A stretch of 64,000 bases of DNA from a virus, in the IMG/VR virus record IMGVR_UViG_3300036832_001138, positions 1 through 64,000 of that record, one strand, 5' to 3'. The notes under the pieces are model-generated. The model saw only the letters and a program-made list of their open reading frames with translations, was not told the DNA's origin and did not search any database. Positions 2,820 to 56,159 of this stretch are shown in pieces. A program made the position numbers and the translations under genes. Numbering within the stretch: position 1 is the first letter of the stretch; the number at the start of each line of letters is the position of its first letter.

Positions 2820-2914
2820 GCGCCCGGCAGTCACCGTTTGGAGTTCACATCATTCCTGGCCGGGCGCGGCGGTCGCACGAACGCGATGGAGTTCAGAAGA
2901 ATAATGGCGACCGC
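2820..2914 (-). ncRNA. Orphan TIGR-like mini-array (2 guide units)
   Basis: gcgcccgg-ca-gtcaccgtt-tggagttca-catcattcc-tgg-ccgggcgc-g-gcggtcg-ca-cgaacgcga-tggagttca-gaagaataa-tgg-cgaccgc; same architecture as the 53.7-56.1 kb arrays. Confidence 0.9.
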
Positions 2915-2942
2915 AACGAGAGTGTAACCGAAAAAAGGGCCA

Positions 2943-4103
2943 ATGGCGAGAACACCCACACGAGTACCCGCATTTCCGACAACGCCGCCGGGCGCGGGCG
3001 TGCCGACGCGCGTACCGGGGCCGTCGCTTCCTCCCGTGGGTACGCGCTCGCCCACGCGCGTGCCCGCTGCGCCGCAGACCGCGCCGGGCAACGGCTTTCC
3101 CAATGCGGTGCGTATTCCGCAAACGTCGCCGGTCGGCCCGACCTACCCGGTGCACAGCCCGCCCGCGCCTACCGTCGGCTCGCGCTTCCCGGCGAATTCT
3201 CCGCCTCTGCCCATCGTGCCCGCGCGCTATCCCAACAGCGCGCGGCTGACGGCGGAGGCGGTGATCAGGGGGGCGAGCTTTCCCAATCGAAGCAGTCCGG
3301 GCATGGCGTTGCCGACGCCAACCGGGCAATTCCCCGATCACCCGACGGCGCAACTCCCGGCCCCGCCCGCGCAATTCCCCGACCGATTCGATCCGGGTAT
3401 GACGCTGCCGACGCCAGTCTCGCACTTCCGTCACTACAACAAGCCGGGTGAGCCGGGCTCGGGCGGGTTTGATCCCGCACCTGCGCCAAATCGGCGCTTC
3501 CCGACGCGGCATATCGATCCGCTCACGCGCATCCCGCGGTGGCGGCAACGGCTGCGTATCGCCTCATTCAAGGGGATTGAATTCTACGTCGAGCAACAAG
3601 GGCGCACGTCCGGCACGCGTACCGTCTTGCATCAATATCCGAAGCGCTCTGTGCCCTATGCCGAATCCATGGGACGCGAGGCGTTGCACTACGCGGTCAC
3701 CGGCTATCTGATCCAATCGCCGAACTGGCCGACGGGCGCGTCGTATTACGAGATGCTCTCGGATTATTCCGATCAGCGCGACAGCCTCGAAGCGGCGTTG
3801 ATGGACCCGGTGCCGGGCGAATTGCGTGATCCGCACACGCCGTATCTCGGCGTTGGTTACGCGCCGCTTCTGTTCATGTGTGAGAAGTACACGATCGTCG
3901 AGCAACGCGAGAAGGGCGGTTTTTGCTCGATCGAAATGAGCTTCGTCGAGGCTGGCGTCGCTGGCATGTCGATCCAAATGCAAGACACCGCTGGCGTCGT
4001 CGCCAACGCCGCGAACAACGCGAGCACTGCCGTAGCCGCGCAGGCTAATGCGCAACTCGGTGCCGTCAATCAACCCGGCGCTGCGCTCGCGTTTGAAGAA
4101 TAG
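2943..4103 (+). CDS. DNA circulation protein (Mu gpN-like) N-terminal domain with a Pro-rich extension
   Basis: 'WRQRLRIASFKGIEFYVEQQGRTSGTRTVLHQYPKRSVPYAESMGR' resembles DNA_circ_N; 'CSIEMSFVEAG' follows. Confidence 0.8.
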   Translation: MARTPTRVPAFPTTPPGAGVPTRVPGPSLPPVGTRSPTRVPAAPQTAPGNGFPNAVRIPQTSPVGPTYPVHSPPAPTVGSRFPANSPPLPIVPARYPNSARLTAEAVIRGASFPNRSSPGMALPTPTGQFPDHPTAQLPAPPAQFPDRFDPGMTLPTPVSHFRHYNKPGEPGSGGFDPAPAPNRRFPTRHIDPLTRIPRWRQRLRIASFKGIEFYVEQQGRTSGTRTVLHQYPKRSVPYAESMGREALHYAVTGYLIQSPNWPTGASYYEMLSDYSDQRDSLEAALMDPVPGELRDPHTPYLGVGYAPLLFMCEKYTIVEQREKGGFCSIEMSFVEAGVAGMSIQMQDTAGVVANAANNASTAVAAQANAQLGAVNQPGAALAFEE

Positions 4104-4539: not shown

Positions 4540-4561
4540 ACGCGACTAAGGGAGCGCGGCG

Positions 4562-5431
4562 ATGGTCGCCAAGCTCATCAGGCACAAGTTTCAATCGGCC
4601 GTCGCTGACGGTACCGATGCGACGCTCGTGCGACCGTCTGTCTGGAACGGTGATGCGCATGATTTCAAGCTCGGCGGGCGCACCGTCGTGGTGTTGACGG
4701 ATACGATTGTCAACGCCGACGAATGGAGCCTGATCAAATACAATCGTCCTGGTCAAAATATAGCCGTTTCGCTCGCCGCGCCTGACGCTAACAATTTTCA
4801 GGCGGGATGGACGACATTCCTGCGCAACATCAACTCAGGCATCGCCACCATCACGACTCCGGCCTTGATCCAATTTGGCATGGGATCAATCAGTTCGCTC
4901 AATCTTCGTCAGGGAGAAGATTTGATCCTGACATCGGATGGCACGAATTACGACGTGCTGTGGTCATCGGGCTCGCTATTTGCGCGGGCGGGACAAATAC
5001 CGGGGACGGCGACAAACGACAACGCGGCGGCGGGCAATGTCGGCGAGTTTCTGTTCTCCGTTGTCCCAAGCGGTTCAGGGCCGGGTCTTGTTAGCAGCAC
5101 TGCGGTGGCCGTCGCTGGTGTCAATCTCACGCCGGGGGATTGGGACGTGCAGGCCATGATTGGGTTTGTTGGCGGCGCTGCGACGCAGGTGGCCTATGCG
5201 ATTGGTTCGCTATCAACGGCGCAGGGTGGGATAACGGGCGGCTATGGTTCGGTGTGGCAGGCGTATTACAACGCCGGGCCATTCAGTTCTATCGGCAGCA
5301 TCATGCTGCCGATATCGTCAGTACGATATACCCCCACTAGCACGACAACCGTTTGGTTGAACGCGCAGGTGGGCTTTACTCCTGGCTCAGTCAGCGCCTT
5401 CGGCACCATCCGCGCGCGCAGGGTGCGCTGA
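4562..5431 (+). CDS. Putative tail fibre/receptor-binding paralog 1
   Basis: First of three TGATG-coupled paralogs sharing 'HKFQxAxADGxDATLVRP' and 'GQIPGTxxNDNAAxGNVG', ending in 'RRxR'. Confidence 0.6.
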   Translation: MVAKLIRHKFQSAVADGTDATLVRPSVWNGDAHDFKLGGRTVVVLTDTIVNADEWSLIKYNRPGQNIAVSLAAPDANNFQAGWTTFLRNINSGIATITTPALIQFGMGSISSLNLRQGEDLILTSDGTNYDVLWSSGSLFARAGQIPGTATNDNAAAGNVGEFLFSVVPSGSGPGLVSSTAVAVAGVNLTPGDWDVQAMIGFVGGAATQVAYAIGSLSTAQGGITGGYGSVWQAYYNAGPFSSIGSIMLPISSVRYTPTSTTTVWLNAQVGFTPGSVSAFGTIRARRVR

Positions 5432-6288
5432 TGGCAAAACTGTTCAAACATAAGTTTCAGTTGGCCGTCGCGGACGGTGCTGATGCGACACTTGTGCGTC
5501 CATCGACCTGGAACGGCGATGCACATGACTTCAAGCTTGGCGGGCGCACGGTAACGGCGGCGACGGACACGATTGTCACCACCGACGAATGGAGCCTGAT
5601 CAAATACAATCGCGCTACACCCATATCAGTCAGCATGGGGCCGATAGATGCCAACAATTTTCAGGCAGGTTGGGTGACGTTTGTACGCAATCTCGGTGCG
5701 GGAGTTCTGCAAATCAGCGGTACAGGCGGCGTCAACAATGGTTTTGGAAACGCCTCCCCCCTAAGACTTGAGCAAGGTGAAGATGCGATTATCACTTCGG
5801 ATGGCGCGAATTTTGATGCGCTTTGTTCGTCTGGCTCGCTGTGGACGCGCGCGGGCCAGATACCGGGGACGCTAACCAACGACAACGCGGCGGCAGGGAA
5901 TGTCGGCGAGTTTTTGATAGCGACGAGCGGCAGTGGTGCGCTGGTAACCGATACTCCGTTTGCGCTGATAAGTATCACGCTAACAGCAGGAGATTGGGAC
6001 ATTGAGGGGACCGCGACATTTTCCGGCAGTGGGGCAACCCCGGTGAACTATTTGATAACCGCAGTTAACACCGTAGCAAACCAAGTGCATCAGGGACTCG
6101 GTTCGCATTGGCAGACGTTTTGGGGCCAGACGCCATTCAACGTTGTAGGCAACGTGGTTTTGCCGATCAGCAAATGGCGGCTCAGTATTGCGTCTGGCAC
6201 GCAGCCCGTTTATGTGAACGTACAGGCGGGCTTTACTCCGGGCGCAATCAATGCCGTAGGCACTATCCGCGCGCGCAGGGCACGCTGA
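5431..6288 (+). CDS. Putative tail fibre/receptor-binding paralog 2
   Basis: Start MAKLFKHKF overlaps the previous stop; same conserved blocks as paralog 1. Confidence 0.6.
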   Translation: MAKLFKHKFQLAVADGADATLVRPSTWNGDAHDFKLGGRTVTAATDTIVTTDEWSLIKYNRATPISVSMGPIDANNFQAGWVTFVRNLGAGVLQISGTGGVNNGFGNASPLRLEQGEDAIITSDGANFDALCSSGSLWTRAGQIPGTLTNDNAAAGNVGEFLIATSGSGALVTDTPFALISITLTAGDWDIEGTATFSGSGATPVNYLITAVNTVANQVHQGLGSHWQTFWGQTPFNVVGNVVLPISKWRLSIASGTQPVYVNVQAGFTPGAINAVGTIRARRAR

Positions 6289-7169
6289 TGGTAGCAAAGA
6301 TTTTCAAGCACAAGTTTCAGTCAGCGATTGCGGATGGCGCTGATGCGACGCTCGTGCGGCCGCAGGCGAATTGGAATCTCGACGATCATGATTGGCGATT
6401 TGGCAGCCGCACGGTCACGGCGGCGACCGATGCTATCGTCAATGCCGATGAAATGAGCCTGATCAAATACAACAGGTCATCGGCAATCGCTGTTTCCATC
6501 GCGTCGCCGGATGCCAATAACTTTGTACCCGGATGGCTCACGTTCGTGCGCAACATCGGTGTGGGCTTGGTCACGATCACGGCCGCTGGCACAGCAGTGT
6601 TTAATCGTGGATTGGATTCATCAAGCTTTCTCTACCTTCGTCAAGGCGAGGATGCATTCATCATATCTGACGGCACGAATTACGATGCAATCGTTCGGTC
6701 CGGCTCGCTGTTCAATCGACGCGGCCAGATTCCAGGGACGACAGGAAACGACAACGCGGCGACGGGGAATGTCGGCAACACTCTTAGCGCTTCCAACGGG
6801 CCGTTCGGACTCACGTCAAATGTAATTACCAGCACTAATGCATTCTCTTTAGGCCCCGGCGATTGGGATTGTGATGCAACGATGTCATTCAGCACGGTAT
6901 CGGGCAATGAGCCAAACACCTACGTCGATTATATTACTGGTTTTTTCAATCTCGATACTTATGGCCAAGGATATGGACAGCAGCAATTTGCGGTGCCCTT
7001 GTTTCACAGCCAGCCTTTTCTCTTTATTAACAGCCTTGGGTTCGTGCTACCGACCGCACGAGTTTTGGTGCCAGTTGGCGCGACTTCCGGCGTGTTTATG
7101 GCCGCGCAGGCTGGCTTTGCTGGCCCCTTACAATTCACTTGGTACGCGTCATATCGGCGGGTTCGCTGA
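6288..7169 (+). CDS. Putative tail fibre/receptor-binding paralog 3
   Basis: Start MVAKIFKHKF overlaps the previous stop; same blocks, with a more divergent C-terminal domain. Confidence 0.6.
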   Translation: MVAKIFKHKFQSAIADGADATLVRPQANWNLDDHDWRFGSRTVTAATDAIVNADEMSLIKYNRSSAIAVSIASPDANNFVPGWLTFVRNIGVGLVTITAAGTAVFNRGLDSSSFLYLRQGEDAFIISDGTNYDAIVRSGSLFNRRGQIPGTTGNDNAATGNVGNTLSASNGPFGLTSNVITSTNAFSLGPGDWDCDATMSFSTVSGNEPNTYVDYITGFFNLDTYGQGYGQQQFAVPLFHSQPFLFINSLGFVLPTARVLVPVGATSGVFMAAQAGFAGPLQFTWYASYRRVR

Positions 7170-8674
7170 TGTCCGGCCCGACTGCATTCCAACCTAATGC
7201 CTTTCAGGCGAATGCGTTTCAGACCGCCGTCCCGCTGACGGTTAATGCCTATTCGCTCGGCGCGCTGCAAATCGGCATCCCATCGCTGACGGTCAAGCGC
7301 GTTCTGTCCGCCAACGCCTACTCGCTCGGCTCGCCCGCCTTCGCCGCGCCGCCGCTCAAAGCGGTTGTTATCTTCACGGCCCCCGTGGCGTACTCGCTCG
7401 GTTCGCCGAGCTTCGCCAAACCGGCTCTATTTAGCTGGACGCGGATCGTCGCGGGCGATTACTCGCTCGGCTCGCCGAGCTTTGCGACGCCGCCGCTCAC
7501 GCGCATTGTCGTCTTCGGCAAGCCCGCGGCGTATTCGCTCGGCTCGCCCGCATTTGCCACACCGGCTCTGAAAATTATCGGCTTCGCATTTCATGCGAAC
7601 CCGTATTCGCTCGGCTCGCCGTCATTCGCATCGCCGTTTGTCCGCTTCACGCAAAAGTTCACGGCGCGATCGCTCACGCTCGGATCGCCGACATTTGCCA
7701 CGCCGCAACTGACGCAAACGCATCGGTTCTTTACCAACACGATGGCGCTCGGCTCGCCGAGCTTCGACCGACCAAGCGTCAGGATGAACTATCGCCTTGT
7801 ACCGGCGGCGTTCGATGTCGGCAGTCTCGACATTGCGTCGACCCCGCCCGTGCTTGAGATCACCACGCTATTCAAAGCGAATGCCTATTCGCTCGGTAGC
7901 CCGAGCTTCGGCTTCCCGCGGTTGCAAACGCAAGCCGTCACGCCGCCATGGCCGCCGAGCTATTTGACTCAAGTTGAGTCAGCGACCGATCTGCTCGTTG
8001 GCTTCGTCAACGCGGTGTTGCGCAGCATACCCGACACCTCGACTGACGTTGCGCAAACCGCGTTGCAGCTTGGGGCACAACTTCGTGCCAATGCGACCAA
8101 CATCATTCGCGGCAATACGCTTGGCACGCTACTCAATAACTTCCTGCTCGCGGCTGATGCTGCGGGCGCAACCTATGGCGGTATCGAGGAAGCGCGCAAA
8201 TATCTGATGAGCTTTAGCGGAAGCCCGCAAGTGTTTACGCAAATCGTCATGCGCTCGGCGCTCGTGATGACGCTTGGCCTCGAAAGCAAAATCATTTCGC
8301 GCATGACATTCTCGACGCAAGCGCAAGCGCAAACAATGGTCATGGCCGTGCAGACGATGTTTGATGACGCCAAGGCGATCGGGATCGATACCATCGATGC
8401 GCTGGTTTATGAAAACCTGATTGCGTTGGCCGGTGCAATCATGAACCACCTCGCGACGACGGCATTGCAGCTTCCGCGCTACGTGGAATATCGCAGCGGC
8501 CTACCGATGCCGAGCCTTTATCTCGCCAATCGCGTCTACGGCGACGCCAGCCGGTTCGAAGAAATCGAGCGCGAGAACGGCGTGATTAATCCCGCATTCT
8601 GTCCGCGCACATTGCGCGTCTTGTCGGATGCGGAAATCGTTCCGCTACCGGGAGGGCCCTACCGGGCAAGCTGA
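7169..8674 (+). CDS. YSLGSP-repeat protein fused to a Mu gpN-like C-terminal region
   Basis: About 10 repeats of ~25 aa (xYSLGSPxFAxPxL). C-terminal 'LPMPSLYLANRVYGDASRFEEIERENGVINPAFCP' resembles the end of DNA circulation proteins. Confidence 0.6.
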   Translation: MSGPTAFQPNAFQANAFQTAVPLTVNAYSLGALQIGIPSLTVKRVLSANAYSLGSPAFAAPPLKAVVIFTAPVAYSLGSPSFAKPALFSWTRIVAGDYSLGSPSFATPPLTRIVVFGKPAAYSLGSPAFATPALKIIGFAFHANPYSLGSPSFASPFVRFTQKFTARSLTLGSPTFATPQLTQTHRFFTNTMALGSPSFDRPSVRMNYRLVPAAFDVGSLDIASTPPVLEITTLFKANAYSLGSPSFGFPRLQTQAVTPPWPPSYLTQVESATDLLVGFVNAVLRSIPDTSTDVAQTALQLGAQLRANATNIIRGNTLGTLLNNFLLAADAAGATYGGIEEARKYLMSFSGSPQVFTQIVMRSALVMTLGLESKIISRMTFSTQAQAQTMVMAVQTMFDDAKAIGIDTIDALVYENLIALAGAIMNHLATTALQLPRYVEYRSGLPMPSLYLANRVYGDASRFEEIERENGVINPAFCPRTLRVLSDAEIVPLPGGPYRAS

Positions 8675-8677
8675 TCG

Positions 8678-9205
8678 ATGGCCGATGTTCGAATAATCAG
8701 TAAGTTCGATTGGCGCGAGACAATCGCCGATTGGCAGCTATTGCAAAATGGGCTGCTCGACGAACGCGAGGAACTTGCGAATTATGTCAAGGTCGCGCTG
8801 ATGACCAATCGGCTTTCCGAGCCGACGGAAATCAGGCCAGACCCGGATTCTGACGATCGCAACGGATGGTGGGGCGATTATCAGGCGCAAGAGATTCACC
8901 GCGGCTGGCCGATCGGTTGCAAAAATTGGCTGCTCACCCGCGCCAAGATCAACGACGCGCCATCCATGGAAGGTGCAACCGTCGTGCGTGCGGAAATGTA
9001 TACGCGCGAAGCGTTGCAACCGCTAATCGACATGAGACTGTGCACCGCGATCGATGTGAAGGCCGCACGCGTCGGCGTAGATCGCATCGATGTTGGCGTT
9101 GTCGTTTATCGCGGCAACATGCCGGAGGTCGCGCTCCTATTCCAAGACCTTTGGAACAAGATGCGCGTCGAACCGGTGCTCTCGCCGTATGGAGGTTCAG
9201 TATAA
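8678..9205 (+). CDS. Mu gp46-like baseplate wedge protein
   Basis: 'DDRNGWWGD...IGCKNWLLTRAK...RAEMYTREALQPLID' is the GP46 signature. Confidence 0.85.
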   Translation: MADVRIISKFDWRETIADWQLLQNGLLDEREELANYVKVALMTNRLSEPTEIRPDPDSDDRNGWWGDYQAQEIHRGWPIGCKNWLLTRAKINDAPSMEGATVVRAEMYTREALQPLIDMRLCTAIDVKAARVGVDRIDVGVVVYRGNMPEVALLFQDLWNKMRVEPVLSPYGGSV

Positions 9206-10309
9206 ATGCCGTGGGTCACGCCAACGTTGCAGCAATGCCGCGAGATCGTGCGCGACGATATCACCGCGTCTTTGCAGGGCGCGGCCGTGGTCGGCAACAC
9301 GGTGCTGCGCGTTATGTCCGATGCGATGGCGGGGATCGGCGCGCTCGTGCTGCGATACGAGGATTGGCAGGCGCGGCAATTGATGGTCGACCAAGCCGAG
9401 AAGGAATGGCTCGATCGGCACGGGAACATATGGCTCGTGAACGCCGACGGCACGACCGGCCGCAAGGGCGCGACCACGGCATCCGGTACGGTAACCTTCA
9501 CGGGCGTTGCAGGCGTGACCGTTGCCGCGGGCACCGAGCTTGTGTCACCTGACGGGCAGGCGTTTTACGATACGCTGGAATTCATCACGCTCGGCACGGC
9601 ACCGGTCGAGGTTGCCGTTCGCGCGACGACCGCCGGGGCGGCGGGCAACATACCCGCGGGCACCGCGCTGGCGCTGACCGTTCCGGAATCCGGCGTCGAT
9701 AGTGCGGTCATCGTCGTCGATCTGCGCGGCGGTGAGGAAGTCGAGAGCGATGACGAACTCCGCGCGCGCGTGCTCGCGCGTATCCGCCAGCCACCGATGG
9801 GCGGCTGCGCTTACGATTACGAGCATTGGGCGATGAGCATTCCGAGCGTGACGCGTGCATGGTGCGCGCCGCGCGAGATGGGAATGGGCACCGTGACGGT
9901 GCGATTCATGTGCGACGCGTTGCGGCCGGAAACCAGCGGCATCCCGACGCAAGACGATATCAATATCGTGCGCAACTATCTCGACACGGTGCGCCCGGTC
10001 GCGGTGCGAGATTTCTTCGTTGAAGCGCCCGTGCCCGAGCCGATCAATTTCAATCTCGCGCTCAAACAGGATTCTCTCGCGCTGCGCGGGCAAGTGCAAG
10101 CGTCAGTCGCGGCGATGATCAGCGAGAAGGCCGCGCCCGCGCACCAAGTCGACGGCGAGCTTGTGGCGGGCACGACGATTCTCGCATCGTGGGTTGCGGA
10201 GGCGATCAACCGCTGCACGAATGATTTCACGCTCGATATGCAAGATCATCCCATGCCGCACAACGGGGCAATCGGGGTACTCGGTGCGATCAGCTATCCG
10301 ATTCCGTAG
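9206..10309 (+). CDS. Baseplate J / Mu gp47-like protein
   Basis: 'WLDRHG...RKGATTASG', 'GGEEVESDDELRARVLARIRQPPMGGCAYDYEHWA', 'GMGTVTV'. Confidence 0.9.
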   Translation: MPWVTPTLQQCREIVRDDITASLQGAAVVGNTVLRVMSDAMAGIGALVLRYEDWQARQLMVDQAEKEWLDRHGNIWLVNADGTTGRKGATTASGTVTFTGVAGVTVAAGTELVSPDGQAFYDTLEFITLGTAPVEVAVRATTAGAAGNIPAGTALALTVPESGVDSAVIVVDLRGGEEVESDDELRARVLARIRQPPMGGCAYDYEHWAMSIPSVTRAWCAPREMGMGTVTVRFMCDALRPETSGIPTQDDINIVRNYLDTVRPVAVRDFFVEAPVPEPINFNLALKQDSLALRGQVQASVAAMISEKAAPAHQVDGELVAGTTILASWVAEAINRCTNDFTLDMQDHPMPHNGAIGVLGAISYPIP

Positions 10310-10319
10310 AGAGAAGGGC

Positions 10320-10369
10320 GAGCCCCGGCAGTCACGCTCTGGAGTTCATGAATTCGATGGCCGGGGCTC
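10320..10369 (-). ncRNA. Orphan TIGR-like guide unit
   Basis: gagccccgg-ca-gtcacgctc-tggagttca-tgaattcga-tgg-ccggggctc, intergenic between baseplate J and the gp48-like gene. Confidence 0.88.
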
Positions 10370-10420
10370 TAAGTCGCTTGGGAGCGACCTGACGACAAGT
10401 TTAGAAAAGATGGAGAGAGA

Positions 10421-11452
10421 ATGCCACCGCCTCCTGGCCCGCCGGTCGAAGATCGCCACGTCCGCCGCGGGCAGGAAGAATATTCGCACGCCATAAGCGC
10501 GTTGCTGCCGCAAGGCATCGCGTGGCCGCGCTGGCCTGACAGCGTTTTGATGCAAACGGTCTATGGCCTCGCGGGCATCATGGGTTATGCCGACGGCCGG
10601 ATCGCCGATCTGCTTGAGCGCGAAAGCGATCCGCGCATCACAACCGAAATGCTCGATTGGTGGGAGCGGGCGTGGGGCTTGCCTGATCCCTGTTACACCG
10701 GTCCGTCGACCATCGGCGAGCGGCAAAAAGCGCTGATGATGCGCATGACGTTAATGGGCGGGCAGTCGCGAGAATTCTTTATCGCGATGGCCGCCTACAT
10801 CGGCTACACGATCGCGATCAGCGAGTACAATCCCTTCATTGTTGGCATCGCGCCGCGCTACCAAGGGCACTATTATCAGGGCAATTATGACGTTGTTGCC
10901 AACTCGCCCGATCTCAGGGCGATCACGCCGAGCAAGGATCAGTTTTGGAGCGCGGTGACGCCGGATGCCGGATACAACACGCCGCCCGGTTACACCAATG
11001 CGCCGACGCCATCCGCATTGACGGTTGCGCTGCCGCCGCTGACTGCCGGAGCGGCAATCTCTTTCGGCGATCGCTTGTGGTTCGACGGCACCAATTGGAA
11101 AATTGCCCCGGTCGGGCAAAGGTTCTATTCCGACATCGCGGGTTTTGACGAATCGCTGCGCTCGCGCTGCGGAGATAACCGCGATTACAAGGCCGACGGT
11201 TCGCTCGGCGAATGGCCCGCACAGATCGGTCATCCGGCGATGCGGTTTGCTTGGACCGTGCACGTCTACCGCGCGCGGCTGACGTGGTTTCGCGCGAGCA
11301 AGGGCCAAGCCGGTGTCGATCCGCATTTGCGCATCGGCAAGGCCGAGGACCTTGAGTGCATCATCCGCCGATGGCGGCCCGGTCATACCGAGGTGCTGTT
11401 CGATTACAGCGGCACCGCTGCGCCGGGCGATCCCATGGCTGGTACGCCGTGA
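10421..11452 (+). CDS. YmfQ/DUF2313 (Mu gp48-like) baseplate protein with an internal insertion
   Basis: 'ALLPQGIAWPR', 'ESDPRITTEMLDWWERAWGLPDPC', 'LECIIRRWRPGHTEVLFDY'. Confidence 0.85.
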   Translation: MPPPPGPPVEDRHVRRGQEEYSHAISALLPQGIAWPRWPDSVLMQTVYGLAGIMGYADGRIADLLERESDPRITTEMLDWWERAWGLPDPCYTGPSTIGERQKALMMRMTLMGGQSREFFIAMAAYIGYTIAISEYNPFIVGIAPRYQGHYYQGNYDVVANSPDLRAITPSKDQFWSAVTPDAGYNTPPGYTNAPTPSALTVALPPLTAGAAISFGDRLWFDGTNWKIAPVGQRFYSDIAGFDESLRSRCGDNRDYKADGSLGEWPAQIGHPAMRFAWTVHVYRARLTWFRASKGQAGVDPHLRIGKAEDLECIIRRWRPGHTEVLFDYSGTAAPGDPMAGTP

Positions 11453-11512
11453 TCCTCCCGCGCCGTTGAGACGGCGCGCATCAACCAAAGCGTTCAAAGA
11501 GGGAAATGCGCG

Positions 11513-14075: not shown

Positions 14076-14708
14076 ATGGTCGGAAGACTCGCCTACATCG
14101 TGTTTCTGGATTCCGGTGGTCCGGTCGATCCGGGCTTCGGCGTTCCCGGTTGGCCCGCGCATCCTATCGCACCGGGCGGGCCGCCTCCCGGCATCTGGCC
14201 CGGTCCCGGCTACCCGGCACATCCGATCGCGCCCGGTGGTTCTCCGCCCGGCATTTGGGGCGGTGCGCCAGCATGGCCCGCGCACCCGATCGCGCCCGGT
14301 GGTCGGCCTCCGGGTTTTTGGGGCGGGTCACCCGCATGGCCGAGCCATCCCATCGCGCCCGGTGGTTCGCCTCCGGGTATTTGGGGCGGCGTTCCGCCGA
14401 ACTACATCGACATCGGGTTACCGGGCCAGCCGCCCGGCATTTGGGGCGGTGGCAATCAACCGTTCCCGACGCCGCCGATCTACATTCCGATCCCGCCCGG
14501 CGAGCAGCCGCCCGAAGGCGGCAATGGGCTCTTGCCTAGTCATCCGATTGTGATTCCACCGTCGGAAGGCGTTCCCGAAGATAGCCAAAAATACTTGGTT
14601 CACGTTTACGTCGCGGGGGTTGGTGGAGTGTGGTTCTTGATCCAACCGCCGCCCATGCCGACGCATCCGTGGGTGCCGCCCGCTCCACCGGCAGGGCCGA
14701 AGGCGTAA
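14076..14708 (+). CDS. Pro/Gly-rich repeat protein (PAHPIAPGGxPPGIWGG repeats)
   Basis: SD gaaggagtc at 14061; four to five ~19-aa tandem repeats. Confidence 0.7.
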   Translation: MVGRLAYIVFLDSGGPVDPGFGVPGWPAHPIAPGGPPPGIWPGPGYPAHPIAPGGSPPGIWGGAPAWPAHPIAPGGRPPGFWGGSPAWPSHPIAPGGSPPGIWGGVPPNYIDIGLPGQPPGIWGGGNQPFPTPPIYIPIPPGEQPPEGGNGLLPSHPIVIPPSEGVPEDSQKYLVHVYVAGVGGVWFLIQPPPMPTHPWVPPAPPAGPKA

Positions 14709-14863: not shown

Positions 14864-14915
14864 GTGATCCGGGCATCAGGTTATTGGAGTTCATAGGTCG
14901 CGTGGCCGGGATCAC
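14864..14915 (-). ncRNA. Orphan TIGR-like guide unit
   Basis: gtgatccggg-ca-tcaggttat-tggagttca-taggtcgcg-tgg-ccgggatcac; new stem sequence but the same boxes and 9-nt spacers. Confidence 0.85.
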
Positions 14916-28395: not shown

Positions 28396-28487
28396 TGTTC
28401 GACTCCTTCGTTGTGATGCACCGGGGCAAGCCGGTGAGTGCCGATGGGCACTATCGAATCCCGCCTCGCGACGGGACTCTGTAGCGC

Positions 28488-29729: not shown

Positions 29730-29827
29730 GGTTAGACTCCTTCGTTTGATATGTCCGGGGCAAGCCGGAACACGTGCTCGGCGAGCACTATCGAGGGCAG
29801 CGCCTTAGCTGCCCTCTGTAGCGATCG

Positions 29828-31727: not shown

Positions 31728-31823
31728 ATTCGACTCCTTCGAGAGAGAAGCGCCGGGCAAGCGGCGCAGTGCAGCGAGTGCAGCACTATGACCGGGCGGC
31801 ACGCCGCCCGGCTTAGCGATGTC

Positions 31824-32477: not shown

Positions 32478-32576
32478 CTTCGACTCCTTCATTTGAATGC
32501 ACCGGGGCAAGCCGGTGAGTGCAGCGAGTGCAGCACTGCAAAGGCCACGCCGAAGCGTGGCCGATGCGGTGGTGTC

Positions 32577-33104: not shown

Positions 33105-33202
33105 CTTCGACTCCTTCGGGTGATGCGCCGGGCAAGCGGCGCGAGCGTTGCGAGTGCAACACTGCAAAGGCCACGCCGAAGCGTGGCCGATGCGGTGGTG
33201 TC

Positions 33203-50703: not shown

Positions 50704-52848
50704 GTGATGCTGGAGATCGAGCCCATAGCTCGCGCATTGCTCGGCGAGCCCAACGCGAAGCTATCTTCGCAATTCGAATGGCGATATGGCAACCGCGGCT
50801 CGCTTTCAATCGATCTGCGCAAGAATGTTTGGCACGACCACGAAACCGACGAGAGCGGCGGATGCCTCGATCTGATCACTCACAAGACCGGACTCGACGG
50901 CCCGGAGCGTGCGCAATGGATGCACGATCGCGGCATCGGCAATGGATACGATCAAACGACCAAGCGCCCGGAGATCGTGGCGACGTTTCCCTATAATGAC
51001 GAATACGGCAAGGAGCTTTTTCAGGTTGTCAAATTCGAGCCGAAGGATTTCCGCCAGCGGCGGCAAGACAAGACCGCGCCCGGCGGCTATCGCTGGTCGG
51101 TCAAGGGCGTGCGGCGAATTCCCTATCGCCTCGACGATTTGTCAGAAAAAATCGAAGGGCGCATTTTCATCGCCGAAGGCGAAAAAGACGTTGATACGCT
51201 TTGGCGGCACAACATTCCAGCGACGTGCAATGCCGGGGGCGCAGGCAAGTGGCATCCCGAACTCACCGAATTTTTCCGCAACAAGACCGACAACGTAGTT
51301 GTACTGCCCGATCGTGATCCGCCGAAGAAAGACCCAAAGACCGGCGCGGAAATGAAGCACGAGGATGGGCGGTTCATTCGGCCGGGGCAAGACCACGCAC
51401 AAGAGATCGCGGCAGAGATGCATCGCATTGGCGTACCCGTGCGCGTGGTCGAGCTTTGGCGCGATTGGCCGGAGATGCCCGAGAAGGGTGACGTAACCGA
51501 TTGGTTCGATCATGGCGGCACGGCCGACCGGCTACAGAAAATTGTTCAAGACGCCCCATTTTGGAAACCGGGCGATCAAGCTGACGACGGCGCGCTGCTC
51601 AAGCTCCAATCCGTGTTTCCGATCAACGAGCGCGCACTCCCAACGCGCAATTGGATCATGCCAGGACTTTTAATGCGGCGTCAGGTAACCGTGTTGGTAG
51701 CACCAAGTGGTGTGGGCAAAAGTTTGCTCACGCTGCAATTAGGTATCGCCTGTGCACAAGGCCGAAAATGGAGCGGTTGGACTCCGCGCCGTACATTCAA
51801 CGTGCTGTTTATCAACTCGGAAGATGACTATTTCGAAATCTGCCGCAGGCTCGCCGCGGCCACGCAAAGGATGCGACTCGGCGCACATAACGAATTCGAA
51901 ATTGATCAGCTAGGAATCGCCGATCGCTTCCATATCGCCGATGCCGAGCAGAGCGGTACTGTTGTTGCCAAGTTTGACGCACGAACCAAAACGCTCGTGA
52001 GCACACCGTTGCACGATCAACTGATCGAAACAATAAAAGCCAACCAAATCGATGTGGTCTTCGTCGATCCGTTTGCCGAGACTTTCGAGGGCGACGAAAA
52101 TTCCAATAGCGAATTGAAGTGGGCGGGCGCGTTATGGCGCAAGGTTGCGCGGCAAACCGATGCTGCGGTTTGTCTCGTGCATCATACAAAAAAATATGCA
52201 AGCGGGCTGCAAGGTGACGTTGATGCGGCGCGCGGTGCTGGTGCGCTGATCGGAATCGCGCGCATTGTCTCGACGCTATTTCCGATGACGCCGAAGGAAG
52301 CGGAAGCGATGGGCGTCAAGCTCGGAGATAGGTCGCTCTATTTGCGATACGATGATGCGAAAGCAAATCTGAATTTGGTTTCTCCGTTTGCGCGCTGGTT
52401 TCAAAAGACCACGATCACGCTCGACAATGCATGCGGCGATCCTAACAGCGACGACTTTGTGCCCGGCGACGAAGTGGGCGTGCTCAATCCATGGAAGCCT
52501 GAAACGAAAGACGTGCACGAAGCTCAGATCATCGGATTTTTCAAGGCGATCGATCGCGGCATGGTCGACGATGCTGATCAACCGACCGGCGAATTCTGGA
52601 CCTTCAAAAAGGGCAAGAGCGGCGCGAGATACGTCGGCTACCTCGCGCAAAGCTTTTTCAAATGCGATGCGCTCTCGCAAGCCGAAGCGCTGATCCGCAA
52701 GTGGGAAGGCACAAGATTGAAAACGATTCAATTCAAGGCGCGGAACGGTCACCTTCGTGATCGCGTCGTGAGCGAGCTTTCCCCCGACTTCCCGCGCCCC
52801 GAGGCCGCGCCGATCGAGCCGATGGCACAGCTTTTTCCTGCCGAATAG
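50704..52848 (+). CDS. Primase-helicase (TOPRIM + AAA_25/RepA-like helicase)
   Basis: TOPRIM 'IFIAEGEKD...LPDRD', 'KGDVTDW'; Walker A APSGVGKS; 'VFVDP', 'LVHHTKK', 'ARGAGAL'. Confidence 0.9.
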   Translation: MMLEIEPIARALLGEPNAKLSSQFEWRYGNRGSLSIDLRKNVWHDHETDESGGCLDLITHKTGLDGPERAQWMHDRGIGNGYDQTTKRPEIVATFPYNDEYGKELFQVVKFEPKDFRQRRQDKTAPGGYRWSVKGVRRIPYRLDDLSEKIEGRIFIAEGEKDVDTLWRHNIPATCNAGGAGKWHPELTEFFRNKTDNVVVLPDRDPPKKDPKTGAEMKHEDGRFIRPGQDHAQEIAAEMHRIGVPVRVVELWRDWPEMPEKGDVTDWFDHGGTADRLQKIVQDAPFWKPGDQADDGALLKLQSVFPINERALPTRNWIMPGLLMRRQVTVLVAPSGVGKSLLTLQLGIACAQGRKWSGWTPRRTFNVLFINSEDDYFEICRRLAAATQRMRLGAHNEFEIDQLGIADRFHIADAEQSGTVVAKFDARTKTLVSTPLHDQLIETIKANQIDVVFVDPFAETFEGDENSNSELKWAGALWRKVARQTDAAVCLVHHTKKYASGLQGDVDAARGAGALIGIARIVSTLFPMTPKEAEAMGVKLGDRSLYLRYDDAKANLNLVSPFARWFQKTTITLDNACGDPNSDDFVPGDEVGVLNPWKPETKDVHEAQIIGFFKAIDRGMVDDADQPTGEFWTFKKGKSGARYVGYLAQSFFKCDALSQAEALIRKWEGTRLKTIQFKARNGHLRDRVVSELSPDFPRPEAAPIEPMAQLFPAE

Positions 52849-53647
52849 GTTCGTCAACGGCGACGCGACGCCATTCGCTCAGCAAATCTTTGAGAAATTG
52901 TTTCATCGTGATGCGCAGCGCATCTTTGCGCCGATGGCCGTCGGTCCAATCCGGGTGCGCTTTCTTGGTGTAGGCGCGGCGCTTAGCATAGATTTCGCCA
53001 TAGTGGCCCTTTGGCTTGCCTTCGCCGCCGGTTTTCTTTGCGCCAATCCACTGCGCGTTCACGAGCCACGTCGCGATCTGTGCCATCAGCGCATAGCGCT
53101 CCCCGGAAAAAGGATTTTCGATCCATTCGTCGGCGCTCAGCGCGCGCGGTCGCCACGTCGTGCGTTTCCACGTTGATCCGGCGTGGCCGTCGTATGGTGC
53201 GAAGCCGAGCCGCTTCCATAACTTGCTCGGCTTGGAATAATTCGAGAGATCGCCAGCTTCGGCGACGATGGTCGCGAGCCCGAGCGCGCCTGCGCCGTGA
53301 ATCTTTTCGATCCATGGATAAACCGGTAGCTCGCACGCGGCAGCCTCCATTCGCTTTTCCGTGGCAGCACGCCGTTCATCAGCGGGCGCACGCGCAGGAT
53401 CGCATACCTGCAACACTTCTTCCGCCAGCGGATGCGCTTCGCCCTCGCGAATGCGCTTGATAATTTCGCGCACCTCGCGGTTCGATTTCTCGCGCTCGGC
53501 ATCGCTGGCGTTAGGATTCCATTTGGTGCCATTGATACGAATGAAGCTTTCGAGCGAGCGGTCAAGTTTCTGTTGCACTTTCATTGCGAACCGTCGCTTT
53601 CGATGCAGGCCGCGGATCAATTCGATGGTTTCGGATTGTTGGGTCAT
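52733..53647 (-). CDS. TIGR-associated Nop-domain protein without a nuclease domain (TasA-like)
   Basis: 'IHGAGALGLATIVAEAGDLSNYSKPSKLWKRLGFAP' and 'GHYGEIY..RR...HRRKDALRITMKQFLKDL' resemble the IS110/Nop RNA-binding region; starts at the coiled coil with no DEDD-RuvC or HNH; directly downstream of the array. Confidence 0.8.
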   Translation of the reverse strand: MTQQSETIELIRGLHRKRRFAMKVQQKLDRSLESFIRINGTKWNPNASDAEREKSNREVREIIKRIREGEAHPLAEEVLQVCDPARAPADERRAATEKRMEAAACELPVYPWIEKIHGAGALGLATIVAEAGDLSNYSKPSKLWKRLGFAPYDGHAGSTWKRTTWRPRALSADEWIENPFSGERYALMAQIATWLVNAQWIGAKKTGGEGKPKGHYGEIYAKRRAYTKKAHPDWTDGHRRKDALRITMKQFLKDLLSEWRRVAVDEPIRQEKAVPSARSARPRGAGSRGKARSRRDHEGDRSAP

Positions 53648-53676
53648 TTGTTGTGGTTCCTATTTGTGAGTTAGGT

Positions 53677-54214
53677 GCGAGCCCGGCAACCGGTCAATGG
53701 AGTTCACGATCGCCTTGGCCGGGCTCGCGGCGGTCGCAAGCGGCGTGTGGAGTTCACAGACGTGATGGCGACCGCATTGGTGGATTAGGGTGCGAGCCCG
53801 GCACTCGCGATATGGAGTTCAAGTGCTGGTAGGCCGGGCTCGCGGCGGTCGCAACGCAACGTTGGAGTTCACATGATCTTTGGCGACCGCATTCGAGAAT
53901 AGAGCGCCCGGCATGCCGTTTGTGGAGTTCAATCACGTGCTGGCCGGGCGCGGCGGTCGCACGGAGGCGCTGGAGTTCACGATCTACATGGCGACCGCAT
54001 CGGTGGATTGGGTGCGAGCCCGGCATTGGCCGACAGGAGTTCAACCCTTTCCTGGCCGGGCTCGCTACGGTCGCATTGCGCGCGTGGAGTTCACTCAGAT
54101 CGTGGCGACCGCAAAAGGTGCGCCCGGCAGCGTTGTCATGGAGCACACAAGTGTTTTGGCCGGGCGCGGCGGTCGCAACCGCTCCGTGGAGTTCACTACT
54201 GTTTTGGCGACCGC
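53677..54214 (-). ncRNA. TIGR-like stem-loop guide array, proximal (10 units)
   Basis: Minus strand unit: stem-CCA-N9-TGAACTCCA-N9-TG-stem'; stems alternate between GCGGTCG and GCG(A)GCCCGG; all spacer pairs differ. Confidence 0.9.
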
Positions 54215-54226
54215 ATTTCGTGAATA

Positions 54227-54898
54227 TCATGACCGTGCATCGCCCTCGATTTCTGACGGCTTGCGCGCGGCGGCGATCAGATCGCTTGCGACCTTCGCCG
54301 AGCCGTCGCGGATCACTTCGACGGCTTTGATCCTAGCGTCGTTATAGTATTGCACGGCAATCTTGAGCGGTATCACCTTCTCGACTTCGCCGTGCGGATC
54401 GGCGGCGACGCAATAGTCATTCAACCGCCGGATTGCGATCGCGTCGACTGCATCATCATAACCGCGCTGTAGGAAATCTCCGGCCGTGTTTGCCAGATTT
54501 TCCGCGATGGCGCGCAATTCGTGTACGCGCAGCTTCCCAAGCGGACCATAACCACGGATTTTGCGGTTGAATATCTCGGCGGCGACGGCTTGCCCGGCGG
54601 CGATCGCTCCCGCCTTTTGCGCGTCGGTGGGTGTGCGGAGCAGACTGCTCCGGCGATGCTTGCCCTCGCGGCGGCGCGCGGCGGGCTTCGGGTGCGCGAT
54701 CCGCGGTAGCTTCGTTTCGCTCGACGGCGACGACAAGCGCGACAGGTAATCAGCAACGAGCGCGATAAGCAGCGGCCGCTTCGCATTGTCCATCAACGCG
54801 CGTGCCAGCGTCGGTGCGGCTTTGTTCACACTATTGTTGCTGGCGCGCAGCGCTTCGATCGCGGCGTCGCGGAGCTTATCGAGATCAGAGGCGGCCAT
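54227..54898 (-). CDS. Hypothetical helical protein embedded between the two arrays
   Basis: 223-aa ORF with SD gaagga; it fills the gap between the arrays exactly. Confidence 0.7.
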   Translation of the reverse strand: MAASDLDKLRDAAIEALRASNNSVNKAAPTLARALMDNAKRPLLIALVADYLSRLSSPSSETKLPRIAHPKPAARRREGKHRRSSLLRTPTDAQKAGAIAAGQAVAAEIFNRKIRGYGPLGKLRVHELRAIAENLANTAGDFLQRGYDDAVDAIAIRRLNDYCVAADPHGEVEKVIPLKIAVQYYNDARIKAVEVIRDGSAKVASDLIAAARKPSEIEGDARS

Positions 54899-54929
54899 GT
54901 GTTTGGTGTCCTTCTCGTTTGAAAAAAGT

Positions 54930-56121
54930 GCGAGCCCGGCAAGTGGTGACTGGAGTCCACGTCGGATCAGGCCGGGCTCGCGGCGGTCGCAGAATTGTTT
55001 TGGAGTTCACCAAGGCACTGGCGACCGCATTCGAGATAAGAGCGCCCGGCAGGCTACATTTGGAGTTCATAGGGCCAATGGCCGGGCGCGGCGGTCGCAG
55101 CGCAAGATTGGAGTTCACGTGATCTTTGGCGACCGCATTCGAGGGAAAGAGTGCGCCCGGCAGAGCTTCACAGGAGTTCACGCCGAATTTGGCCGGGCGC
55201 GGCGGTCGCATCTCGTCGTTGGAGTTCAATCGTGTGCTGGCGACCGCATTTCGAATAGGTGCGCCCGGCAGAAGCCGGTTGGAGTTCAGGCCAGCATTGG
55301 CCGGGCGCGGCGGTCGCACGACACCAATGGAGTGCAAGGGAGAACAGGCGACCGCATTCGAGATGGGTGCGCCCGGCAGGTCATCGTTGGAGTTCACGTG
55401 CTTGATGGCCGGGCGCGGCGGTCGCAATCTCTGGATGGAGTTCATACAAATGCTGGCGACCGCATTCGGGTGAAAGAGAGCGCCCGGCATTTCCATTTTG
55501 GAGTTCAACTGATCGCTGGCCGGGCGCGGCGGTCGCATTCCAAACCTGGAGTTCATCAGCTTACTGGCGACCGCAGTCGGTTTGATAGGTGCGCCCGGCA
55601 AGGCGATGTTGGAGTTCATATTGCCGGTGGCCGGGCGCGGCGGTCGCAGATAGGTGCAGGAGTTCACACCCGAATTGGCGACCGCGTTGGTGATAGGTGC
55701 GCCCGGCAATGATTGCTTGGAGTTCATCATGAAGGTGGCCGGGCGCGGCGGTCGCAGCGTGGCGTTGGAGTTCACGGGATCAGTGGCGACCGCGTTCGTT
55801 GTGATAGGTGCGCCCGGCAGACAGCGATCGGAGTGCACGTTCACCAGGGCCGGGCGCGGCGGTCGCAGTGGCAGTATGGAGTTCATTCGGCACCTGGCGA
55901 CCGCATTCGAGAATAGAGCGCCCGGCACGCCTCCCTTGGAGATCAATGCCGAAATGGCCGGGCGCGGCGGTCGCATCCTCGATCTGGAGTGCATCAGTGG
56001 CATGGCGACCGCGTTCGTGAAAAGGTGCGCCCGGCAGACGAGTTCTGGAGTTCACGACTACGATGGCCGGGCGCGGCGGTCGCACCTTGAACTTGGAGTT
56101 CAACCACGTCGTGGCGACCGC
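54930..56121 (-). ncRNA. TIGR-like stem-loop guide array, distal (22 units)
   Basis: Eleven two-hairpin modules (~105-115 bp period); same CCA/TG boxes, 9-nt spacers and 9-nt loop repeat. Confidence 0.92.
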
Positions 56122-56129
56122 ATGCCAAA

Positions 56130-56159
56130 CATATACGGGCCATCGGCCTAACGTGTCAA
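56130..56159 (-). promoter_or_regulatory. Sigma70 promoter driving the array-tas operon, with operator variant
   Basis: TTGACA-N18-TATATG; the predicted start site falls at the first stem; the spacer holds AGGCCGATGGCCC. Confidence 0.8.

What the first reader, a model, noticed from the sequence alone, without database searches (positions are those of the whole stretch)
9576..10392. Solo guide downstream of baseplate J matches baseplate J at 16/17
Seen: unit 10320-10369 predicts TCGAATTC(A/G)TCACGCTC. Baseplate J has TGGAATTCATCACGCTC at 9576-9592 (L-E-F-I-T-L), and the single difference is a third codon position (CTG vs CTC). Next to it is a spacer-less hairpin gtcgct-tggg-agcgac (about 10373-10388) resembling a collapsed second-type stem. 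This is a second independent case of a dispersed guide lying within about 1 kb of its near-target.
Basis: partly seen in the sequence, partly recalled or inferred. Interest (0 to 1): 0.85.

Follow-up and report, generated by a model that had tools for sequence, protein, structure and literature searches.

The report
Solo phage guide RNA beside its target
A lone guide-RNA gene of a phage's TIGR-Tas system sits next to the baseplate gene J, matches that gene except for one silent base, and matches perfectly the same gene in a related phage that lacks the guide, which points to what these newly found RNA-guided systems aim at in nature.

Summary
Window 10320-10369 is a complete stem-loop tigRNA unit, read on the minus strand. 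It belongs to the same family as a 32-unit TIGR array at 53.7-56.1 kb, which lies beside a 304-aa nuclease-less Tas protein. Its two 9-nt spacers specify a 17-bp site, with the halves on opposite strands sharing one central base pair. J carries that site at 9576-9592 with 16 of 17 matches, and the difference is a silent Leu codon (CTG for CTC). In this genome, re-paired guides give 0.03 such matches; two are seen. A related phage (G005, J 70% identical) has the perfect CTC site and no unit at its J-gp48 junction. Across 430 unique units of this Tas family, near-cognate sites within 700 bp are about 19-fold enriched, and only in this geometry. Fifteen of 109 local hits differ from the guide only by synonymous changes, against 0 of 75 in the wrong-geometry control. 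No unit matches its own genome perfectly. Guides beside tas match other phages' tas genes better than their own. My best reading is that guides aim at sibling-phage alleles while the carrier's linked allele is silently recoded, which resembles free-standing homing endonucleases. Expression and binding are untested.

The parts
10320..10369 (-). Solo stem-loop tigRNA unit. On the minus strand it reads stem GAGCCCCGG, box C CCA, spacer A, loop repeat TGAACTCCA, spacer B, box D TG, stem CCGGGGCTC.
   Evidence: The architecture is the same as in the 32 array units. The RNA fold gives the predicted stem (-36.6 kcal/mol, z -3.1).
10349..10357 (-). Spacer A (TCGAATTCA on the minus strand)
   Evidence: It follows CCA and precedes TG, as Faure 2025 section 8 describes for box C and box D.
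10340..10348 (-). Loop repeat TGAACTCCA (starts UG, ends CCA)
10331..10339 (-). Spacer B (GAGCGTGAC on the minus strand)
10373..10388 (-). 6-bp hairpin. It is the collapsed remnant of the second-type (GGTCGC/GCGACC) partner unit that precedes each first-type unit in pairs.
   Evidence: (I6) and the alignment.
9576..9592 (.). Near-cognate 17-bp site in baseplate J. It matches 16/17, and the mismatch is the wobble base of Leu CTG (guide: CTC).
9206..10309 (+). Baseplate J gene, which holds the near-target
   Evidence: Pfam PF04865, E 4e-57.
10421..11452 (+). Mu gp48-like baseplate gene. The unit lies in the 111-nt gap before it. That gap is 13 nt in G004, and in G005 the stop and start overlap (ATGA).
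   Evidence: Pfam PF10076.
53674..56135 (-). Stem-loop TIGR array. It has 32 units of two alternating stem types (10 plus 22) and is split by ORF 54227-54898.
52733..53647 (-). tasA-like gene: 304 aa, coiled coil plus Nop-like domain, no nuclease domain found
   Evidence: Pfam Transposase_20, E 5e-4, below its cutoff. AF2 model pLDDT 83. The 10 best Foldseek PDB hits are all TasR or TasH structures.
2820..2915 (-). Dispersed pair of units, type 2 then type 1. The type-2 guide has a 15/17 site at 4087-4103.
4087..4103 (.). Near-target of guide 2868-2915 at the last codons and stop of the baseplate-hub-like ORF 2943-4103. Both differences are silent (TTT/TTC, TAG/TAA).
14864..14910 (-). Second solo unit, with a 9/10 stem. 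No near-target was found for it.

Best explanation
The element is a dispersed gene for a stem-loop tigRNA of the phage's own TIGR-TasA system. If it is transcribed from the minus strand and loaded into the TasA dimer, spacer A would pair with one DNA strand and spacer B with the other strand of a 17-bp site, sharing the central base pair.

The cognate site is a stretch of the baseplate J gene that codes LEFITL. It is present unchanged in a related phage without the unit. The carrier's own J keeps the peptide but has a silent CTG-for-CTC change.

I read this as allele-specific targeting of sibling phages, by RNA-guided DNA binding that blocks transcription or replication of a co-infecting or resident relative. 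The carrier's own allele is recoded to be spared. The guide is kept next to that spared allele so that recombination cannot separate weapon from immunity.

Shown here:
- the anatomy of the unit;
- the Tas fold;
- the target geometry;
- the non-random, silent-difference relation between guide and neighbouring gene;
- the perfect site in G005.

Inferred: expression, loading into TasA, discrimination between the CTC and CTG sites, and the effect on the rival phage.
For: 1. The unit has every sequence hallmark of the 37 other units in the genome and lies on the same strand as the array and tas. Box C (CCA) and box D (UG) are placed as in Faure 2025 section 8.

2. The effector is Tas-like. The 10 best Foldseek PDB hits are TasR/TasH (E 1e-4 to 7e-4), followed by IS621 and ISCro4 bridge recombinases.

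3. The target geometry A + rc(B) follows from the 8-nt 3' overhangs in Faure section 7 (my derivation). The 1-bp overlap is supported by A9-B9 complementarity: 219 of 430 against 107.4 expected, Z 12.4, with all 80 other position pairs at |Z| <= 2.9. The enrichment appears only at that spacing. Sites with <=2 of 16 mismatches within 700 bp number 10 against 1.0 expected. The five other spacings and all six spacings of the mirror geometry gave 0-2 each against 0.35-0.85 expected.

4. The 16/17 match: 2 observed against 0.03 expected in this genome.

5. Replication in phage G001 (Tas 73% identical, no shared spacers). Three guides have 15/17 sites 17-208 bp from their unit. The mirror geometry gave 0 hits, and 0 of 40 location permutations reached 3.

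6. Over 430 unique units, 8 have sites with <=2 mismatches within 700 bp, against 0.42 expected from foreign guides.

7. Silent differences. Of the local hits with 1-4 mismatches, 15 of 109 are all-synonymous in the longest covering frame, against 0 of 75 for the mirror geometry.

8. No perfect self-match was found within 1.5 kb in any of the 430 units.

9. Perfect targets exist elsewhere. G005 J has CTC GAA TTC ATC ACG CTC and no unit. The G001 tas-proximal guide matches L018 tas perfectly, and the L047 guide matches L029 tas perfectly, while each guide's own tas has 2-3 mismatches.
Against: - No RNA data: no RNA run holds the stretch. No sigma-70-like promoter was found in 9400-10700 on either strand. 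The unit is antisense to the late genes around it.
- TasA has no nuclease domain, so any effect must come from binding.
- In TaTasR, mismatches near spacer edges were tolerated (Faure section 7). Here the self-mismatches are at A2 and B9, so the self site may still be bound.
- Only one relative is informative. Given a conserved peptide and 52% codon identity between the two J genes, a perfect six-codon match has a chance of roughly 0.02.
- G004 and G001 lack both the unit and the site.
- G005 is only about 50% complete, so it cannot be said to lack a TIGR system.
- Metagenomic loci are partly related to each other. I removed identical guides but not all shared ancestry.
- The second 16/17 self-hit, from an array guide to 41421-41437, is 13.7 kb away and non-synonymous, so it does not fit the local-silent pattern.
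Confidence: 0.6

Rival explanations
1. Self-regulation. The TasA-tigRNA complex binds the imperfect site in the phage's own J gene, and other guides bind the 5' part of tas. This acts as a reversible roadblock that tunes late-gene or tas expression. Guide and operator sit together as repressors and operators do in phage immunity regions.
For: - TasA proteins repress transcription when guided into a gene (Xu 2026 preprint, section 12).
- The mismatches at A2 and B9 are edge positions that TaTasR tolerated.
- In three records the unit next to tas has its near-target inside tas: G001 codons about 20-25, L053 codons about 8-13, and L066. This looks like autoregulation.
Against: - No self site among 430 units is perfect.
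- A guide's own tas matches it worse (2-3 mismatches) than several foreign tas genes (0-1).
- Differences confined to silent positions are what avoidance under protein constraint produces. They are not what an operator under selection for binding would show.
- Sites lie on either side of the unit and in either orientation.
Confidence: 0.17
2. A relic of spacer origin. New units arise at array ends or at dispersed places by copying a nearby 17-bp stretch of the phage's own DNA. Guide and source then drift apart, and the near-target has no present function.
For: - In 11 of the 12 best local hits no other unit lies between guide and site, so they involve terminal or solo units.
- Distances are short (17-1172 bp).
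- Units in the same slot of related loci carry different spacers, which shows turnover.
- How TIGR spacers are acquired is unknown (Faure 2025 discussion; Xu 2026 discussion).
Against: - No mechanism is known that would take the 5' halves of both strands of a site and place them around a loop repeat.
- Neutral drift in a non-coding guide should give differences that are non-synonymous in the target's frame about as often as in the control. Instead 15 of 109 hits are fully silent, against 0 of 75.
- The guide's own gene is not its closest match.
- This reading can be combined with self-avoidance and does not exclude the best explanation.
Confidence: 0.18
3. Coincidence. The unit is a stray repeat, and the 16/17 match is a chance near-match among many guides and many positions.
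For: - The spacers are short.
- The overlap geometry was chosen after seeing the data.
- One 16/17 hit of the same guide, in an unrelated gene of the L069 contig family, is evidently chance.
- 26 of 27 exact matches in IMG/VR are unrelated.
Against: - Expectation is 0.03 per genome against 2 observed.
- The geometry is confirmed independently by covariation, Z 12.4.
- The pattern replicates in G001 and in metagenomic loci, with mirror-geometry and foreign-guide controls.
- The one IMG/VR exact match that lies in a J homologue is at the homologous codons.
Confidence: 0.03

Closest known systems
Stem-loop TIGR-TasA systems (Faure et al. 2025, PMC12045711; Xu et al. 2026 preprint 10.64898/2026.09.09.750476; Guan et al. 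2026 preprint 10.64898/2026.08.11.744272)
   Same: - Nop-domain protein without a nuclease, next to tandem stem-loop units.
- Each unit has two 9-nt spacers preceded by CCA and followed by UG.
- The spacers read opposite DNA strands.
- Units can lie at flexible positions around tas.
- TasA acts as an RNA-guided repressor in reporter assays.
   Different: - The two halves of the target share one base pair, giving 17 bp. Faure section 7 reported no covariation for dual-repeat arrays and tested only gaps of 0 and more.
- Units are scattered tens of kb from tas, inside the structural gene module.
- Candidate natural targets are identified, which both papers say are unknown. I saw no supplements. 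Table S1 and figs S4-S7 and S13 of Faure 2025, and the unreleased TIGRSafari resource, may cover this clade.
Free-standing homing endonucleases of T4-like phages (intronless homing, marker exclusion; Edgell et al. 2010, PMC2988022, passages read)
   Same: - A small element in an intergenic gap between genes conserved among related phages.
- Its recognition site lies hundreds of bp away in the neighbouring conserved gene of relatives that lack the element.
- The carrier's own site differs by polymorphism.
   Different: - Specificity is carried by a roughly 50-nt RNA gene, not a protein gene, and the effector is encoded about 43 kb away.
- The effector has no nuclease domain.
- Cleavage, gene conversion and preferential inheritance are untested.
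IS110/IS1111 bridge RNA recombinases (IS621 structure 8wt9)
   Same: - Related RNA-binding fold: IS621 and ISCro4 are the next Foldseek hits after the Tas structures.
- Two guide segments in one loop read opposite strands.
- As I recall, and not from a call, both segments cover a shared core.
   Different: There is no DEDD recombinase domain, no donor loop and no element ends. The near-target is intact rather than split by an insertion.
Virus-borne mini-CRISPR arrays with spacers against closely related viruses (recalled: archaeal viruses, Medvedeva et al. 2019; not looked up here)
   Same: Guides carried by a virus are aimed at conserved genes of its close relatives. This is thought to serve superinfection exclusion.
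   Different: The guide system and effector are different. In those arrays the spacers sit in arrays and are not placed beside the homologous gene with a silently recoded self allele.

Membership tests
TIGR-Tas (stem-loop type, TasA) | Tas protein with coiled coil and Nop domain | tested here: met
   AF2 model with pLDDT 83. The 10 best Foldseek PDB hits are all TasR (9mty) or TasH (9w04 and others), E 1e-4 to 7e-4, TMq 0.44-0.52. By sequence the evidence is weak: 9mty_A E 0.015 and Pfam Transposase_20 E 5e-4, below its cutoff.
TIGR-Tas (stem-loop type, TasA) | Tandem units with two short spacers, each preceded by box C (CCA) and followed by box D (UG), with palindromic flanks | tested here: met
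   There are 38 units in the genome and 32 in the array. The spacers are 9 nt, the loop repeat is UGAACUCCA, and there are two alternating stem types. The solo unit has all of these features, with a perfect 10-bp stem.
TIGR-Tas (stem-loop type, TasA) | Absence of an HNH or RuvC domain (TasA rather than TasH or TasR) | tested here: met
   The protein is 304 aa and the model is all-helical. Pfam finds no nuclease family. I did not search for longer fused forms.
TIGR-Tas (stem-loop type, TasA) | Spacer A and spacer B pair with opposite strands of adjacent target halves | tested here: met
   Enrichment of near-targets appears only for A + rc(B), not for the mirror arrangement. The spacing differs from the published one: a 1-bp overlap rather than a gap of 0-2.
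TIGR-Tas (stem-loop type, TasA) | Units transcribed and processed into tigRNAs bound by Tas | not testable with these tools
   No RNA run holds the stretch.
Homing-endonuclease-like selfish element (intronless homing) | Lies in an intergenic gap between conserved genes and is absent from relatives | tested here: met
   The J-gp48 gap is 111 nt with the unit in G000. It is 13 nt in G004, and in G005 stop and start overlap.
Homing-endonuclease-like selfish element (intronless homing) | Cognate site in the neighbouring gene of element-free relatives, with the carrier's site altered | tested here: inconclusive
   Met in 1 of 3 relatives (G005 has the perfect site). G004 and G001 have diverged at the site. 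The sample is too small.
Homing-endonuclease-like selfish element (intronless homing) | DNA cleavage of the cognate site and gene conversion that copies the element | not testable with these tools
   The effector has no nuclease domain. No co-conversion signal is visible in the G000-G005 J identity profile.

The most novel reading that the evidence does not exclude
Dispersed and array-end tigRNA units are RNA-guided homing elements, a natural gene drive among phages. TasA with the guide would bind the cognate allele in a co-infecting relative. The resulting block or break would be repaired from the carrier genome. The guide unit would then be copied across together with the neighbouring, silently recoded, immune allele. 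This would explain four observations:
- units sit within about 1 kb of their near-targets;
- guide and neighbouring gene differ only at silent positions;
- units are scattered between conserved structural genes;
- many guides aim at rival tas genes.
Probability: 0.2. Interest if true: 0.95.

Novelty: new variant of a known kind. Interest (0 to 1): 0.85.

Why it matters
Both the paper that described TIGR-Tas and its 2026 follow-up state that the natural targets of the spacers, and the way spacers arise, are unknown. My two full-text searches (TIGR-Tas/tigRNA; tigRNA with self-targeting) found no paper reporting natural targets.

This locus, with the family-wide pattern behind it, gives a concrete and testable answer for one clade:
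- Guides correspond to silent variants of genes of the phage itself and of its relatives, including tas.
- A guide's own genome is never matched perfectly.
- Relatives can be matched perfectly.

It also gives a 17-bp, one-base-overlap targeting rule, supported by covariation. That rule matters for predicting targets and for engineering. If the sibling-targeting or homing reading holds, it would show RNA-guided allele competition between phages.

Tried and rejected
- DNA similarity searches of J-gp48 and of the tas-array region against deposited phage genomes found nothing.
- Rfam and tRNA scans of the window found nothing.
- The genome-contig scan with J gave only distant Butyricicoccus prophage proteins at 27-36% identity. 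These were of no use for the junction.
- No RNA holder is listed for the stretch.
- I laid contigs of four soil DNA runs on 9200-11500. This gave many short, diverged pieces. No contig of runs X2-X4 covers the unit. Position 9577 is not among the differences listed, and 419 more were not shown. Nothing can be concluded from this.
- The exact target of the other dispersed guide (unit 2868-2915) occurs once in IMG/VR, in an unrelated AT-rich contig, so that hit is chance. The C-termini of the hub-like protein in G001, G004 and G005 cannot be aligned at LAFEE*.
- A scan for any Leu codon before GAATTCATCACGCTC gave 5 hits, of which only G005 is a J homologue.
- The A6-B6 complementarity seen in 60 units vanished in 430 units, so I dropped it.
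- Hits of G000 array guides in G001 are not in homologous genes.
- The 16/17 hit of the J guide in the L069 contig family lies in an unrelated 348-aa ORF.
- A co-transcribed autoregulatory-leader model fitted the three G001 cases, where the sites lie downstream in the next gene. It does not hold in general: among the 12 best hits, 7 sites are downstream and 5 upstream, and both orientations occur.
- The strict unit parser used from then on finds 34 of the 38 G000 units and 18 of the 22 G001 units. Units it missed were left out of the 430.
- Identical spacer pairs in different loci were counted once: 378 unique of 496 in the metagenome and viral loci.
- Supplementary files of the papers were not seen.
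Full report
**What is there**

The 111-nt gap between baseplate J (9206-10309, Pfam Baseplate_J, E 4e-57) and the Mu gp48-like gene (10421-11452) holds two features. One is a perfect 10-bp inverted repeat (10320-10329 / 10360-10369) around a 30-nt loop. The other is a small hairpin at 10373-10388.

The same architecture recurs 38 times in the 73,077-bp virus record, of which the window is bases 1-64000:
- 32 units form an array at 53674-56135, with two alternating stem types;
- a pair lies at 2820-2915;
- solo units lie at 10320-10369 and 14864-14910;
- a pair lies at about 67.4 kb, outside the window.

Read on the minus strand, every unit is stem, CCA, 9 variable nt, TGAACTCCA, 9 variable nt, TG, stem. 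Faure et al. 2025 (PMC12045711, section 8) describe TIGR repeats that start with UG (box D) and end with CCA (box C), with spacers between them. Section 9 (passages) describes stem-loop arrays. So the units are stem-loop tigRNA genes transcribed from the minus strand. For the solo unit, spacer A is TCGAATTCA and spacer B is GAGCGTGAC.

Directly downstream of the array on that strand lies a 304-aa ORF (52733-53647). Its AlphaFold model (pLDDT 83) has TasR and TasH structures as its ten best PDB matches, followed by IS621 and ISCro4 bridge recombinases. Pfam finds no nuclease domain. It is therefore a TasA-type protein. It has 391 relatives at E <= 1e-3, nearly all unnamed metagenomic proteins.

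**Target geometry**

Faure section 7 reports that each spacer pairs with a different strand and that cleavage leaves 8-nt 3' overhangs. From this I derive that one strand of the target reads spacer A followed by the reverse complement of spacer B.

For the solo unit this gives TCGAATTCA + GTCACGCTC. The J site TGGAATTCATCACGCTC (9576-9592) fits if the two halves share the central base pair, which makes a 17-bp site.

That overlap is not ad hoc. In 430 unique units of this Tas family, the last base of A is complementary to the last base of B in 219 cases, against 107.4 expected (Z 12.4). All 80 other position pairs have |Z| <= 2.9. Faure et al. saw no such covariation in dual-repeat arrays and tested only gaps.

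**Is the match chance?**

In the genome, the 38 guides give 2 sites at 16/17 under this geometry. Sixty re-pairings of A and B spacers give a mean of 0.03, and the mirror geometry gives 0.

Within 1.5 kb of their own unit, two guides have sites with <=2 mismatches: this one, and the pair member at 2868-2915 with a site at 4087-4103. None of 40 location permutations reached that.

**Replication**

A related phage, G001 (65,173 bp; Tas 73% identical; same stems and loop; 22 units; no shared spacers), shows four self-sites at 15/17. All four have the overlap geometry, and the mirror geometry gives none. Three of them lie 17, 87 and 208 bp from their guide.

In 77 metagenomic loci plus two viral loci, a generic parser found 496 units (378 unique), almost all on the tas strand. 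I pooled 430 unique units: 378 from these loci, plus 34 of G000's 38 and 18 of G001's 22, the ones the strict parser finds. The counts are:

| Test | Observed | Expected from foreign guides | Mirror geometry |
|---|---|---|---|
| Units with a site at <=2 mismatches within 700 bp | 8 | 0.42 | 1 |
| <=2 of 16 mismatches, overlap spacing only | 10 | 1.0 | 0 |
| <=3 of 16 mismatches, overlap spacing only | 27 | 8.2 | 7 |

When the spacing between the halves is scanned, only the one-base-overlap spacing is enriched. The five other spacings, and all six spacings of the mirror geometry, give 0-2 sites each at <=2 mismatches, against 0.35-0.85 expected.

In 11 of the 12 best hits, no other unit lies between guide and site. 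These are therefore solo or array-end units.

**The differences are silent**

For the J site the only non-central difference is CTG against CTC, both Leu.

The same holds for 8-9 of the 12 best local cases. Examples are:
- LAFEE-stop, with TTT/TTC and TAG/TAA;
- FAMKVQ, VDAIRM and ETGEVT in three tas genes;
- YRIGHQ, RKKVRN and AEEEHAR.

In a formal count of local hits with 1-4 mismatches, 15 of 109 are fully synonymous in the longest covering frame. The mirror geometry gives 0 of 75.

No unit has a perfect site within 1.5 kb in its own record.

**Perfect targets exist in relatives**

A scan of IMG/VR for the guide-implied 17-mer gave 27 exact matches. Twenty-six are unrelated. One is in G005 (36,877 bp, about 50% complete), inside a J homologue that is 70% identical, at the homologous codons: CTC GAA TTC ATC ACG CTC.

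In G005 the J stop overlaps the gp48 start, and there is no unit. No Tas and no unit pattern were found in the part of the record that is held.

Between the two J genes, 123 of 238 identical degenerate residues use the same codon. A perfect six-codon match therefore has a chance of roughly 0.02. G004 (J 74% identical) has a 13-nt gap, no unit and a diverged site. G001 has neither.

In an all-against-all search, 430 guides gave 45 sites with <=1 mismatch (2 perfect) under the right geometry, against 4 under the mirror geometry. Guides next to tas hit the conserved RRFAMKVQ and LVNAQWIG segments of other loci's tas genes with 0-1 mismatches. Their own tas has 2-3.

In five related loci, the same unit slot carries different spacers in two of them. 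At the Arg wobble position of the site, where the guide has C, the genomes have G, G, T and G, and never C.

**Interpretation**

The element is a tigRNA gene whose cognate site is an allele of the neighbouring J gene. Three features argue that self-binding is selected against, and hence that the guides are active:
- there are no perfect self-matches;
- guide and self site differ only at silent positions;
- relatives are matched better than self.

The closest functional analogy is the free-standing homing endonucleases of T4-like phages. These sit between conserved genes and cut the neighbouring gene of relatives hundreds of bp away, while the carrier's own site is polymorphic (Edgell 2010, PMC2988022, passages).

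TasA proteins are shown to act as RNA-guided repressors (Xu 2026 preprint, section 12). So exclusion of siblings by binding is the most economical mechanism. Homing-like copying is the bolder reading.

Self-regulation through a tolerated mismatch remains possible, as does local capture of spacers. The latter is compatible with self-avoidance.

**Limits**

- Expression is unknown.
- The mismatch tolerance of this TasA is unknown.
- The allele-unit correlation rests on one informative relative.
- The metagenomic loci are not fully independent.
- Supplements of the papers and the TIGRSafari resource were not available to me.

**Hairpin**

The hairpin at 10373-10388 aligns with the outer stem halves of a second-type unit whose interior is deleted. 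The solo unit is thus the surviving half of a pair like the one at 2820-2915.

Noticed in passing
window 53674-56135 and 52733-53647: A full stem-loop TIGR array of 32 units with two alternating stem types lies upstream of a TasA-like gene. The array is split by a 223-aa ORF (54227-54898, minus strand). By eye, in the translations, this ORF resembles an ORF that holds a unit and a near-target in locus L044. I ran no comparison of the two.
   Followed up: partly
window 41421-41437: The array guide at 55090-55137 matches this site at 16/17, 13.7 kb away, at codons 9-14 of ORF 40883-41461 (minus strand). The difference is non-synonymous (KIKRKI against KITRKI), so it does not fit the local-silent pattern. 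It may be a regulatory self-target, a rival allele, or chance.
   Followed up: partly
window 56701-56717: The outermost array unit (56075-56122) has a site with 2 of 16 mismatches 579 bp away, in the adjacent ORF 56209-56868 (minus strand). Only part of the difference is silent.
   Followed up: partly
window 14864-14910 and genome 67393-67488 (outside the window): There is a further solo unit and a further dispersed pair. All six dispersed units lie on the same strand as the array. No near-target with 4 or fewer mismatches and only silent differences was found for these.
   Followed up: partly
window 4554-6785: Three tandem copies of a stretch of about 863 bp, 67-86% alike. These are probably three paralogous genes in the tail or baseplate module.
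   Followed up: no
window 7323-7917: About eight copies of a 69-72-nt repeat inside ORF 7139-8674, which gives a 23-24-residue protein repeat.
   Followed up: no
window 14154-14402: Four 60-63-nt repeats rich in CCN and GGN codons, suggesting a Pro/Gly-rich repeat protein near the second solo unit.
   Followed up: no
window 28398-28441, 29732-29775, 31729-31772, 32479-32522 (also 33123-33207): Four to five copies of a motif of about 44 nt (TTCGACTCCTTC ... CCGGGGCAAGCCGG), 0.75-2 kb apart. They may be regulatory or terminator-like elements between early genes.
   Followed up: no
loci L047 953-1000 and L017 1228-1275: Two unrelated loci carry guides, offset by 2 nt, against the same conserved tas segment (coding LVNAQWIG). 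Each matches other loci's tas better than its own.
   Followed up: partly
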